Below, in pieces: positions 18,001-21,000 of a DNA stretch of 64,000 bases. Source of the DNA: Pocillopora damicornis (Eukaryota); assembly GCF_003704095.1 (NCBI RefSeq), contig NW_020843601.1:62001-126000 (forward strand). The letters are read 5' to 3'. How positions within the stretch are numbered: position 1 is the stretch's first letter; each line of letters starts with the position of its first letter. Position numbers: made by a program.

Positions 18001-21000
18001 CTGACTGACTGACTGATCGACTGACGATCCGATTGAGTGGCTGATTTACCATCTGACTCTCCGACAGAAAAACAGAGCGGTAGATACACACTCTGACGTG
18101 CTGAAAAAGTGGCTTATATCTCCCACATCCCTGTTTTCCTCTCTGTCTGTCTGTCTGACTGACTGACTGAACACATTGGCTAAAACCTTCTGGCAATAAG
18201 TAACTAGTTTTCACCTGCTTCAAGCGTTGTAACTGTGATATTTTTTGACTCTCCATAACCAACGATGTTTCTTGCTTGTAAAATGACTATGTATGTTCTG
18301 TTTTGCCTCAGATGTTTGAGGTGGAGTGAGGTTTCTTTAATTGCGTTCTGTCGCCTCACCATACTTCCATTTGCATGCAGTAATGTTATCATAAAGTCCA
18401 GTATGACACTGCCTCCATTTTTAATCGATTTTTTCCACGTGACGTTGAATTCCAACACGTTCCGCGAAATTTTATGTACCACAGGAGGGCCAGGTGGATC
18501 TGAAATATTGCACAGGTTAACAGTGTTTCATTCAATCGTTCATACCATGGTGAGCAAGATTTAACTCAGACCCGAACATGCTTTTAGGACCCTTGCTAAA
18601 ATTACTTCTCAGTTTTATTAAATGCTTTTTTCAAAGGGCAAGAGGGAATAAATTTTAATTATCGTTTCAGCAACACTGTTACAGTGTTGAAAAATATTAG
18701 TTTTTTATCCGTTATTATTAGAGCTTAAGCTTTATCTTAACAGGCAAGAAAAGCAGTTTTAAGGACATTGATCTTTGGGTATTGAGTTTGAAAAACACAA
18801 CTTTAGTAACTTTGTTATCTTTGGGCATCCATTTTTGTCAAAAGTCTGAGAATTTGAAGAGTTTCCGGACCCGTGAGCTATATCACCTGAAAAAAGACGA
18901 TTTCAGTGCCACTGAGTTACGTTTTATCTGAATATACCTCCAAAAACACGATCAGGGTTTTTAGTAAATACTGCAAAAGCGCACGGAATAGAAAACATCA
19001 AAATGGAGTTGCAGTTACTTTGTACTTACAAAGTTGTTCCACCGTGATGTTATACCACGCAGGTCCTTTGCTGTTAGATGCATTACACGTGTACAAACCG
19101 AAGTCGCCCACAGTTTTCGGTGTCAGTGTCAACGTGCTACCGTCATGCGTCGAATGCACTCCGTTCAAGATCTGTCGGCCATTTTTAAACCACGTAAATT
19201 TCGCCGCAGGATTGGCATAAAATACACAATGTAGGGTTGTATTGTGATTGAGCCATGATTTTATAAAAGGACTTGTTGAAGCTGTTTTGTTGATGTGAGG
19301 TCTATCTGCATATTGGTAAAGAGAGGAACTTTCAAAGATACCATCGAAAGGAAACTATGTTGGGTTTTATTTTGAGGCAATGAGTACAGGTAATTAGCTT
19401 ATGGTAAGTCTAAATGAATCCTGACCATACAGGTATGATTGCTATTTAATTCTTGTAAGCTAGTAAGGGTGTTTTTTTTGTGTCGTTCATAAATGTCAAC
19501 AAGTTTAAGCAAACCCCTTATCTAAAAAATATGTAAACTTTACATGTAAACGTTGGCTTAAGTTGACATCCTGGATATTTATTATTATTCATACATCGAT
19601 AAAAAGTGTTAAAGAAAATAACTCTAGTAAAAATTGCATTCAAGCGAAACACTCAGGCAATAAAGAAAAGAGTTCCCCTTCGAGAGGTGTCCTTCAGTGA
19701 AGGCTAAAGTTATTGGAGCATTGTCCTTTGAACATGATGGAGGTGTCCACTGAAGGAGATACAACCCTCTAAGAAGACACCACAGTAACTGAAACTGAAT
19801 AACGAAGGAAATCAATTTTAAACAACAGAGATCTTCATTTACTTACATCGTATAACTCGCATTTTAACTCGATGAAAATCAGATCCAACTTGGTTTGTTG
19901 CATTGCAGGTGTAGGTGCCAGCATCTTTAAGTTGAACATTAGGAATCTGTAAAACTGTACTTGTATTTCCACGCTTTAATACTTTACCATTGTTTTTCCA
20001 TGTGATGGAGAGAGGTGGATCACCTGTTGCGTCACACTCCAAGTTGACCCTCTCCCCATCTTCCACATCGACTGTCGCGTTTGGTTTTGTAATTATTTTT
20101 GGTGGAACTGATGAGGAATTTAAGGGTATAACATATTAGTTTAAATAACTGATAAATCCACCAGCGTTCTATCACAAAAAAAGCTGCAATCCGATTTGCT
20201 ACACTGCTCGCCACTATTCCACGATAGGTAATGCATGAAGTGATTGACATAAGCCCGTCTCGTTGTTGAATTTGAACGACAGGTAAATTACAACCAAAAG
20301 GTGATCAACACCCATTCAAAAACGAGAGATGAAAATTCACAAATAATGGCTTGCAGACTGAGGTGCAAGTGTTGGTTTGACGTTATTTCACTCCCTCAAT
20401 GATTAACTTTCGACAAAAGTGGTCAGACATCTATAAAGAGGGAGGGGGAGCTCAAACATAGCAGCTCGTAGGGACATACCAGCTCTATTGACATTTCTTA
20501 TTTAAAGATTTGTTGAAGTTTGATTTTCAAACATTCAGATCCTTTGCTTTTGGTTTCAAGGACAGTTGAGAATCATTCAATTACAAGAACCAAAATGTCT
20601 AGTTAAAAATTAAGTCAGTTTACTTACCCCGAATGAGGAGTTTTACTAAGGCACTCGTCACAGTAGTACCATCCATAATCACCTTGCAAGCATAATCAAT
20701 TTCGTCTGATTTGCCCACATTTCGTAAAGTAAACAGTTGTACACTTCCGTTTTGATTGAAATTTCCACTCCAATGAAGCCTGGAGGTAATGGATGAGGGA
20801 ACTTGTGTGTTCGCCGCCCAAGTTCTTGGCGGTGTAACTGTTATGAATTTGTCCTCAAAGTTACCGTAATTATCTACCTTTCCCCAAATGACCACCATCT
20901 TCAAGTGACCCACTTTACCATAAGTAAAATCCCAGCGAAAAGTGACGTTAGAGCCCAAACTTGCCAATAATGAGGATTGAGGTCCCTTCGTAAACGACGC

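What the first reader, a model, noticed from the sequence alone, without database searches (positions are those of the whole stretch)
20628..20999. V-type Ig domain with Trp replacing the B-strand Cys in all three genes
The canonical GxxVTLxC reads GSNVTFRW in RTK-A, GSDVTFHW in RTK-B (52019-52405) and GSDVTLEW in gene C (3208-3624). The C-strand Trp is kept. The F strand is DEIDYAC, DQITYGC and DAQSYKL, so gene C has also lost the F Cys. The canonical B-F disulfide cannot form, while Ig2 and Ig3 keep both Cys. A W-W-C core is what I recall for Alr domain 1.
Basis: partly seen in the sequence, partly recalled or inferred. Interest (0 to 1): 0.7.

Follow-up and report, generated by a model that had tools for sequence, protein, structure and literature searches.

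The report
Disulfide-less V-type Ig domain on kinases
Two neighbouring receptor tyrosine kinase genes and a small membrane-protein gene each begin with an antibody-variable-like domain in which a tryptophan sits where one of the two normally disulfide-bonded cysteines should be, a rare but not unprecedented way of building this fold.

Summary
Three minus-strand exons (20628-20999, 52019-52405, 3208-3624) read GSNVTFRW, GSDVTFHW and GSDVTLEW, and DEIDYAC, DQITYGC and DAQSYKL. All three have AG/GT splice sites in phase 1 and directly follow a signal-peptide exon.

RTK-A and RTK-B are complete tandem paralogues with the layout signal peptide, D1, Ig, Ig, FN3 x3, TM, tyrosine kinase. Gene C is signal peptide, D1, TM.

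D1 is best read as a V-set Ig domain:
- A profile of the three domains hit 48 IgSF chains out of 49 PDB hits, and aligns the Trp with the B-strand Cys of the CD276 IgV domain.
- AlphaFold2 folds RTK-A D1 (pLDDT 82) with C' and C'' strands, and Foldseek finds V domains.
- Pfam V-set scores stay below cut-off.
- The gene C model is poor.

Seven of the eight canonical V-set residues are kept in A and B, and six in gene C. Only the Cys23 position (Trp in all three) and, in gene C, Cys104 are changed.

Published Alr domain 1 lacks both Cys and mostly lacks the C-strand Trp, although it does carry an aromatic residue at the Cys23 position.

The parts
20628..20999 (-). RTK-A D1 exon: V-type Ig domain. 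Trp codon at 20934-20932 in the B-strand Cys position; F-strand Cys codon at 20688-20686.
   Evidence: Phase 1/1, AG...GTAAGT.
52019..52405 (-). RTK-B D1 exon. Trp codon at 52328-52326. F-strand Cys kept, plus an extra Cys at the start of the E strand.
   Evidence: 47/122 (39%) identical to the RTK-A D1.
3208..3624 (-). Gene C D1 exon. Trp codon at 3532-3530. Leu in place of the F-strand Cys; single Cys at Trp+2.
   Evidence: (Pfam V-set E=3.2e-4, below cut-off).
21626..21701 (-). RTK-A signal-peptide exon (ATG at 21701, donor GTGAGT, phase 1).
   Evidence: inferred from sequence, no transcript evidence.
52988..53057 (-). RTK-B signal-peptide exon (ATG at 53057, donor GTAAGT, phase 1).
   Evidence: inferred.
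5552..5624 (-). Gene C signal-peptide exon (ATG at 5624, donor GTTAGT, phase 1).
   Evidence: inferred.
1113..1286 (-). Gene C stalk plus transmembrane exon. The tail exons were not identified and may lie beyond the window start.
   Evidence: read from sequence.
19847..20107 (-). RTK-A Ig2 exon (canonical C-W-C).
   Evidence: (Ig_3 1.6e-20, I-set 7e-20).
19030..19305 (-). RTK-A Ig3 exon (canonical C-W-C).
   Evidence: (Ig_3 2.2e-13).
16726..18499 (-). RTK-A three FN3 exons (18215-18499, 17476-17763, 16726-17037).
   Evidence: (fn3 3.2e-9, 5.3e-9, 6.1e-9). The acceptor at 17763 was read by hand.
15607..15741 (-). RTK-A transmembrane exon.
9326..13943 (-). RTK-A juxtamembrane and tyrosine-kinase exons (ORF bounds only). 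Holds the N-run 10393-10739 in an intron.
   Evidence: [21 protein letters not shown]; PK_Tyr_Ser-Thr E=0.0042 on the first piece.
48917..51568 (-). RTK-B Ig2 (51302-51568), Ig3 (50675-50950) and FN3 x3 (50133-50417, 49459-49743, 48917-49222).
47821..47937 (-). RTK-B transmembrane exon.
42287..45740 (-). RTK-B juxtamembrane and tyrosine-kinase exons (ORF bounds only). Holds the N-run 42877-42994.

Best explanation
D1 is the membrane-distal, N-terminal V-set-type immunoglobulin domain of a small gene family: two tandem receptor tyrosine kinases and one short single-domain membrane protein.

In an ancestor of all three genes the B-strand Cys (position 23 in the V-set numbering that Huene et al. 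2022 quote from Cannon et al.) changed by a single third-base change to Trp.

The domain therefore folds without the B-F disulfide. Its 'pin' (Cys-Trp-Cys) is replaced by Trp(B)-Trp(C)-Cys(F) in the kinases and by Trp-Trp-Leu in gene C. The rest of the V-set scaffold is kept: the Gly of the A'B turn, the Arg-Asp salt bridge, the hydrophobic E-strand residue and the tyrosine corner. A third invariant Trp sits in the D strand.

What is shown:
- The sequence facts.
- The splice-consistent exons.
- The V-type profile and fold matches.
- The alignment of the Trp with the Cys of a solved V domain.

What is inferred:
- The indole fills the core space left by the disulfide.
- The remaining F-strand Cys is a buried free thiol.
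- D1 is the ligand- or partner-binding module of the receptors. This follows from its distal position and from its being the least conserved ectodomain module between the paralogues.
For: Sequence and gene structure:
- Sequences and exon limits.
- Signal-peptide exons directly upstream in all three genes, each ending ...AG in phase 1.
- Full RTK architecture with one domain per phase-1 exon and open frames.

V-type assignment:
- A PDB profile search with the three D1 domains gave 49 hits at E<=10. Of these, 48 are IgSF chains (best JAML at 3.1e-5; CD276, sodium channel beta-2/beta-4, myelin P0, PD-L1, TIM-3, nectin-4) and 1 is unrelated (RRN6, E=1.6).
- In both displayed CD276 IgV alignments, GsdvtleW lies on GTDATLxC.
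- RTK-A D1 alone aligns PSSITSRLHWSGN...LRNVGKSDEIDYAC with PSG(I/V)PDRFSGS...DEADYYC of lambda V domains (best E=8.4e-4).
- AF2 model of RTK-A D1: mean pLDDT 82.2, pTM 0.76. Strands fit A, A', B (18-25, Trp22 in its middle), C, C' (47-54), C'' (59-62), D, E, F, G.
- All 49 Foldseek rows listed are entries with antibody variable domains or V-type receptor domains (CD8, PILR, CRIg). E runs from 1.2e-6 and TMq is 0.46-0.69.
- Atlas first hits for A and B are V-set clusters at 0.97 and 0.96, sharing 207 and 203 of 256 features.

Conservation and precedent:
- The Trp is conserved across copies that are 39% and 25% identical.
- D1 identity between A and B is 39%, against 46-54% for the other five ectodomain modules.
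- Precedent for an aromatic residue at this position in a V-set domain: Huene et al. 2022.
Against: - Pfam V-set does not reach its gathering score for any copy: A 16.4 bits (E=0.011), C 21.3 bits (E=3.2e-4), cut-off 26, and no V-set match for B.
- RTK-B D1 alone has no meaningful PDB sequence hit. Gene C alone has only non-significant ones, and its best hit is an unrelated NTF2.
- The gene C model is poor (pLDDT 60.1, with the C-C'-C'' region below 50), so its Foldseek V-domain hits carry little weight.
- In the RTK-A model the C'-C'' stretch is the least confident part (block means 66 and 71). The alignment behind the model has only 3 sequences.
- A profile-profile comparison of D1 with the window's own Ig2/Ig3 aligned only the E-F part (18 columns, E=0.027, probability 1.8%). 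It did not place the Trp.
- No coordinates were returned, so burial of Trp22 and its contacts with Trp38 and Cys104 were not measured.
- There is no transcript evidence for the exon models.
Confidence: 0.78

Rival explanations
1. D1 is an Ig-like domain of another set (I-set or an intermediate 'early variable' type) with a long C-D excursion rather than a true V-set domain. The Trp would still replace the B-strand Cys.
For: - Pfam V-set is below cut-off for all three copies.
- The C'-C'' region has the lowest confidence in the RTK-A model and is unresolved in gene C.
- Sponge RTK/SAM N-terminal domains were classed as a separate 'EV-set' between V and I (PMC11926128, abstract and passages).
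Against: - The span from the B position to the F Cys is 82 residues in RTK-A D1, against 43 in Ig2.
- The model has both C' and C'' strands.
- All listed fold matches and nearly all profile matches are V-type.
- The D-E-F segment matches the RFSGS...DEADYYC pattern of V-lambda.
Confidence: 0.13
2. The Trp is not the structural substitute of the Cys. The strand register differs, and the Trp is a surface or interface residue used for binding.
For: - Burial was not measured.
- The hhalign comparison with Ig2/Ig3 did not align the B strand.
- Gene C carries a Cys two residues later on the same strand face.
Against: - The motif G-x-x-V-T-(L/F)-x-W keeps the exact spacing of the canonical G-x-x-V-T-L-x-C.
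- HMMER aligns it column for column with CD276 IgV.
- Trp22 sits in the middle of the predicted B strand, in phase with V18 and F20.
- The Trp is invariant at 25-39% identity, as core residues are.
Confidence: 0.06
3. The exons are decayed or mis-assembled copies, so the Cys-to-Trp reading has no biological meaning.
For: - There are N-runs in both kinase genes.
- A truncated duplicate of the start of the gene C exon lies just upstream and ends in a stop.
- There is no transcript evidence.
Against: - All 14 ectodomain and TM exons of the two kinases, and the gene C D1, are open with consistent phase-1 splice sites.
- The kinase motifs are intact.
- The same TGG occurs in three diverged copies.
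- The N-runs lie in introns.
Confidence: 0.03

Closest known systems
Domain 1 of the Hydractinia Alr (allorecognition) proteins (Huene et al. 2022, PMC9546547; passages and section 10 read)
   Same: - N-terminal V-set domain that Pfam mostly misses.
- A bulky aromatic residue (Trp, Phe or Tyr) at the Cys23 position.
- The Arg-Asp salt bridge and the hydrophobic position 89 are kept.
- The domain is followed by I-set Ig domain(s), an FN3-type domain and a TM helix.
- A helix lies between C'' and D: 7 residues in 17/29 Alr models, 4 residues (68-71) in the RTK-A model.
   Different: - Alr D1 lacks Cys104 in all sequences, and only two have Trp41. Here Trp41 is kept in all three copies and Cys104 in two.
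- Tyr102 is kept here, whereas it is Phe in 20/29 Alr sequences.
- The following Ig domains here are canonical C-W-C, whereas Alr I-set domains lack the paired Cys.
- Ig3 and FN3-1 here carry 2 and 0 Cys, against the 3+3 invariant non-canonical Cys of Alr.
- The tail here is a tyrosine kinase, not an ITAM/ITIM tail.
- Sequence homology to Alr was not tested, because no Alr sequence was available.
Geodia cydonium sponge RTK / SAM N-terminal 'EV-set' domains (PMC11926128; PDB 8OVQ)
   Same: - A V-like N-terminal Ig domain on a receptor tyrosine kinase of a non-bilaterian.
- An additional Trp near the core is reported there.
- 8ovq_A appears among the profile hits, but non-significantly (E=0.89).
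   Different: - The sponge domains keep the canonical Cys-Cys-Trp triad (passage).
- They are followed by a C1-set domain, not by I-set and FN3 domains.
CD2 domain 1 type V-set domains without the B-F disulfide
   Same: A V-set fold that does without the canonical disulfide. It is named as an exception in the IgStrand paper (PMC12051499, passage).
   Different: Which residues replace the cysteines in CD2 is recalled and was not checked here. CD2 is a vertebrate adhesion receptor without a kinase.
RET / FGFR / PDGFR-class (CSF1R, KIT) / TIE2 kinase domains
   Same: - These are the best PDB matches of one kinase exon (1.2e-9 to 3e-6).
- HRDLAARN and DFG are present.
   Different: None of these has a V, I, I, FN3 x3 ectodomain (recalled architectures). 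Only single exons were compared, so no subfamily can be assigned.

Membership tests
V-set Ig domain (Pfam PF07686) | Reaches the Pfam gathering score (26 bits) | tested here: not met
   A 16.4 bits (E=0.011), C 21.3 bits (E=3.2e-4), B no V-set match.
V-set Ig domain (Pfam PF07686) | Nine-strand V frame with C' and C'' strands | tested here: met
   - RTK-A D1 only: AF2 strands at 47-54 and 59-62, pLDDT 82.2; Foldseek matches to V domains.
- Gene C inconclusive (pLDDT 60.1).
- RTK-B not folded.
V-set Ig domain (Pfam PF07686) | Cys23 (B strand) | tested here: not met
   Trp in all three copies, aligned to the Cys of CD276 IgV.
V-set Ig domain (Pfam PF07686) | Trp41 (C strand) | tested here: met
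   Invariant W38 (RTK-A numbering).
V-set Ig domain (Pfam PF07686) | Cys104 (F strand) | tested here: met
   Present in A and B (D-x-x-x-Y-x-C). Not met in gene C, which has Leu. The F Cys aligns with that of Ig2/Ig3 and of V-lambda.
V-set Ig domain (Pfam PF07686) | Gly16, Arg75, hydrophobic residue at 89, Asp98, Tyr102 | tested here: met
   Invariant G15, R73, F89, D98 and Y102. The list of residues is from Huene et al. 2022.
Alr domain 1 type (Hydractinia) | Aromatic residue at the Cys23 position | tested here: met
   Trp in all three copies; criterion.
Alr domain 1 type (Hydractinia) | Cys104 and Trp41 both replaced by hydrophobic residues | tested here: not met
   Trp41 is kept in all three copies. 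Cys104 is kept in A and B and is Leu only in gene C.
Alr domain 1 type (Hydractinia) | Six invariant non-canonical Cys in the membrane-proximal Ig and FN3-like domains | tested here: not met
   Ig3 exons hold only the 2 canonical Cys, and FN3-1 and FN3-2 hold none.
Alr domain 1 type (Hydractinia) | Detectable sequence or profile homology to Alr proteins | not testable with these tools
   No Alr sequence was at hand.
Receptor tyrosine kinase | Signal peptide, one TM helix, and a kinase with GxGxx[13 protein letters not shown] and DFG | tested here: met
   PDB hits to RTK kinase domains. Compared exon by exon only.

The most novel reading that the evidence does not exclude
The three D1 domains may preserve intermediate steps between the canonical V-set pin (C-W-C) and the fully cysteine-free Alr-type domain 1 of hydrozoan allorecognition proteins. 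The series would run W-W-C (the two kinases), then W-W-L (gene C), then aromatic-hydrophobic-hydrophobic (Alr).

On this reading the Alr-type V, I, FN3 ectodomain and this V, I, I, FN3 kinase ectodomain share an ancestor. A lineage of non-bilaterian V-set receptors would then have lost the disulfide once, early. Allorecognition receptors would be traceable to signalling receptors with a kinase.
Probability: 0.12. Interest if true: 0.7.

Novelty: new variant of a known kind. Interest (0 to 1): 0.42.

Why it matters
The Cys-Trp-Cys pin is the most conserved feature of Ig domains, and sequence models lean on it. Domains that replace it are missed by routine annotation, as Pfam misses all three here.

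Huene et al. 2022 wrote that they knew of no V-set domain outside bilaterians other than Alr. The sponge structures of 2025 and these kinases, if the window is cnidarian as the Atlas taxa hint, widen that picture. They also give a form with seven of the eight canonical residues that can be aligned with confidence.

The W-W-C state is also a natural experiment on how a V domain is stabilised without its disulfide.

The limits are that the taxon, the family's range and any link to Alr are untested. Disulfide-less V domains are known already.

Tried and rejected
- **Joined models.** Every search used a single exon or an alignment of single exons.
- **D1 against Ig2/Ig3.** The profile-profile comparison aligned only 18 E-F columns (E=0.027), so it gave no placement of the Trp.
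- **Single-sequence PDB searches.** RTK-B D1 gave one chance-level hit (E=0.84). Gene C D1 gave 8 hits, all with E>=0.035, and the best was an unrelated NTF2.
- **AF2 of gene C D1.** pLDDT was 60.1, so the Foldseek V-domain hits on this model are not relied on.
- **D1 homodimer (complex prediction).** The verdict was no answer (score 0.00 in both runs, controls not run, the alignment not used). This says nothing for or against self-binding.
- **Ten longest ORFs outside the three genes.** 0 of 10 had a Pfam match at E<=0.01.
- **Rfam over the whole window.** 0 matches at gathering scores.
- **Further D1-like exons.** hmmsearch of the D1 profile against 1633 window ORFs found the three exons and one truncated duplicate, and nothing else below E=2.
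- **Literature.** Searches for a cnidarian RTK with a V-set domain listed none from their titles and abstract starts. The phrase search found 0 papers.
- **Window status.** I do not take the window for human. The N-runs 10393-10739 and 42877-42994 were left as they are.
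Full report
**What is in the sequence**

The window has about 37% G+C. I do not take it for human.

- RTK-A: GSNVTFRW ... VVIWGK ... SRLHWSGN ... DEIDYAC
- RTK-B: GSDVTFHW ... IIWGQ ... SRTGWIGN ... DQITYGC
- Gene C: GSDVTLEW ... LAWSL ... RRVRWTGE ... DAQSYKL

- 20628-20999, 52019-52405 and 3208-3624 each start after an AG and end before GTAAGT, GTAAGA or GTAATT.
- All three are phase 1 at both ends, as Ig-domain exons classically are.
- The Trp codons are TGG at 20934-20932, 52328-52326 and 3532-3530.

In the three-way alignment A and B are 39% identical and A and C are 25%. Sixteen columns are invariant, among them G15, S16, V18, T19, W22, W38, R73, W76, G78, F89, D98 and Y102. 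The Trp is therefore one inherited change, kept through long divergence. It is not three coincidences and not a sequencing slip.

**The genes**

Comparing all minus-strand frames of the first gene with all window frames lines up two complete paralogues exon by exon. Pfam calls the following for RTK-A:
- Ig2: Ig_3 1.6e-20, I-set 7e-20
- Ig3: Ig_3 2.2e-13
- Three fn3 domains: 3.2e-9 to 6.1e-9
- The start of a tyrosine kinase: E=0.0042

Splice-site scanning gives one domain per phase-1 exon. All 14 ectodomain and TM exons are open. Each D1 exon is preceded by a short exon encoding a Met plus a hydrophobic signal peptide that ends ...AG in phase 1: 21626-21701, 52988-53057 and 5552-5624.

The kinase exons read [18 protein letters not shown] and DFG. 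They match CSF1R, RET, KIT, FGFR2 and TIE2 best for one exon, and many tyrosine kinases for the catalytic-loop exon.

Gene C is signal peptide, D1, a short stalk and a TM helix (exon 1113-1286). Its tail was not found and may lie outside the window.

The exon models rest on sequence only.

**Is D1 a V-type domain?**

Pfam alone does not say so. V-set scores are 16.4 bits (A) and 21.3 bits (C) against a cut-off of 26, and there is no V-set match for B.

A profile of the three domains against all PDB sequences gave 49 hits at E<=10:
- 48 are IgSF chains and one is unrelated (RRN6, E=1.6).
- The significant one is JAML (3.1e-5).
- It is followed by CD276 (0.0065 and 0.0076) and sodium channel beta-2 (0.0089).
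- The rest are weaker but of the same kind: myelin P0, beta-4, PD-L1, TIM-3, nectin-4, CD96.

RTK-A D1 alone aligns its C''-D-E-F part with lambda V domains: PSSITSRLHWSGN...SVQLFTLRNVGKSDEIDYAC against PSGIPDRFSGS...TATLTISG...DEADYYC (best E=8.4e-4).

AlphaFold2 on the three-sequence alignment gave mean pLDDT 82.2 and pTM 0.76 for RTK-A D1. Its strands fit A, A', B (18-25), C (34-41), C' (47-54), C'' (59-62), D, E, F and G. The C'-C'' part is the least confident (block means 66 and 71).

Foldseek against the PDB listed 49 rows. All are entries with antibody variable domains or V-type receptor domains such as CD8, PILR and CRIg, with E from 1.2e-6 and TMq 0.46-0.69.

The ESM Atlas puts both A and B next to V-set clusters (0.97 and 0.96; 207 and 203 of 256 features). 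It also places them near unnamed clusters whose few members with a record are mostly cnidarian.

Gene C is less secure. Its model has pLDDT 60.1 with the C-C'-C'' region below 50. The V-domain matches of that model therefore count for little. Its single-sequence PDB hits are not significant.

**Is the Trp in the Cys position?**

The motif keeps the canonical spacing: G-x-x-V-T-(L/F)-x-W for G-x-x-V-T-L-x-C. HMMER lays GsdvtleW on GTDATLxC in both displayed CD276 IgV alignments. Trp22 lies in the middle of the predicted B strand, in phase with V18 and F20.

The F-strand Cys is placed independently by the alignments with Ig2/Ig3 and with V-lambda.

No model coordinates were returned, so burial and contacts of the indole were not measured. 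That part is inference.

Of the eight canonical V-set residues listed by Huene et al. 2022 (Gly16, Cys23, Trp41, Arg75, Leu89, Asp98, Tyr102, Cys104), RTK-A and RTK-B keep seven and gene C six.

Other features of D1:
- A third Trp is invariant in the D strand (R-x-x-W-x-G), where V-lambda has R-F-S-G.
- D1 has 1, 2 and 1 Cys in A, B and C respectively. The F-strand Cys of the kinases therefore has no evident partner within A's domain.
- B's extra Cys lies four positions before the core residue of the E strand, which I judge too far away for a bond. This is inference.

**How it most likely works**

- The domain folds as a V-type sandwich held by an aromatic core instead of a disulfide. The retained salt bridge and tyrosine corner do their usual work.
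- It is the most distal module and the least conserved one between the paralogues: 39% against 46-54% for Ig2, Ig3 and the three FN3 domains. This fits a binding module that diverged after the duplication. What it binds is unknown.
- A self-pairing test gave no answer, which is not evidence either way.

**Comparison with what is known**

- **Alr domain 1.** The paper says otherwise. All Alr domain 1 sequences lack both Cys, and only two have the Trp. The first Cys is replaced by Trp, Phe or Tyr, and the other two positions by hydrophobic residues. The aromatic residue at the first position is shared, as are the order of modules (V, I-set, FN3-type, TM) and a helix between C'' and D. The rest of the pin, the canonical Ig2/Ig3, the missing Alr-specific cysteines and the kinase tail all differ.
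- **Sponge RTK/SAM domains.** These are V-like domains on a non-bilaterian RTK, but they keep the Cys-Cys-Trp triad.
- **CD2.** It is cited as a canonical-fold exception without the disulfide.

**Verdict**

This is a new variant of a known kind: a disulfide-less V-set domain with an aromatic substitute, here in the intermediate W-W-C form and on a receptor tyrosine kinase.

Unchecked:
- Relatives elsewhere and the organism. The protein and contig searches that could show them were closed, and the remaining contig collection holds only bacteria and archaea.
- Any homology to Alr.
- The supplementary alignments of Huene et al., which were not seen.
- Transcripts.

Noticed in passing
window 3526-3692 and 3700-3864: A tandem duplication of about 172 nt covers the intron end and the first third of the gene C D1 exon (88-92% identical). 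The upstream copy reads through ...GSDVTLEW and then hits a TGA stop. It is a dead partial exon, or possibly a trap for alternative splicing.
   Followed up: partly
window 9844-10392 and N-runs 10393-10739, 42877-42994: A (TGGA)n microsatellite (137 copies) abuts the N-run inside an intron of the RTK-A kinase region. It produces long spurious 'PSIHPSIH' open frames. A second N-run lies in an RTK-B intron. The N-runs were left unfilled.
   Followed up: partly
D1 exons: RTK-A residue 76, and the same alignment column in RTK-B and gene C: A third invariant Trp occurs in the D strand (R-x-x-W-x-G), where lambda V domains have R-F-S-G. The D1 core is therefore unusually rich in Trp: 4, 4 and 6 Trp per domain.
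   Followed up: partly
ectodomain exons of RTK-A (16726-20999) and RTK-B (48917-52405): Both ectodomains carry an odd number of Cys by exon counts: A has 1+2+2+0+0+2 and B has 2+2+2+0+0+1. At least one thiol per receptor is therefore unpaired or bonded between chains.
   Followed up: no
window 11287-11400 and 43394-43483: Both kinases read WTALE where most tyrosine kinases read APE at the end of the activation segment. RET has a similar AIE (recalled).
   Followed up: no
RTK-A D1 residues 68-71 (AF2 model): [quoted passage not shown] Huene et al. report a 7-residue helix at this place in 17/29 Alr domain 1 models and call it atypical for V-set domains.
   Followed up: no
window 1667-1875 and 2178-2383: Two similar stretches in the gene C intron give near-identical translated frames on both strands. 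This is probably a repeated element.
   Followed up: no
window 21700-42200 and 53100-64000: There are long gene-poor stretches between and beside the kinases. 0 of the 10 longest ORFs taken from all the sequence outside the three genes had a Pfam match, and no Rfam family was found in the whole window.
   Followed up: partly
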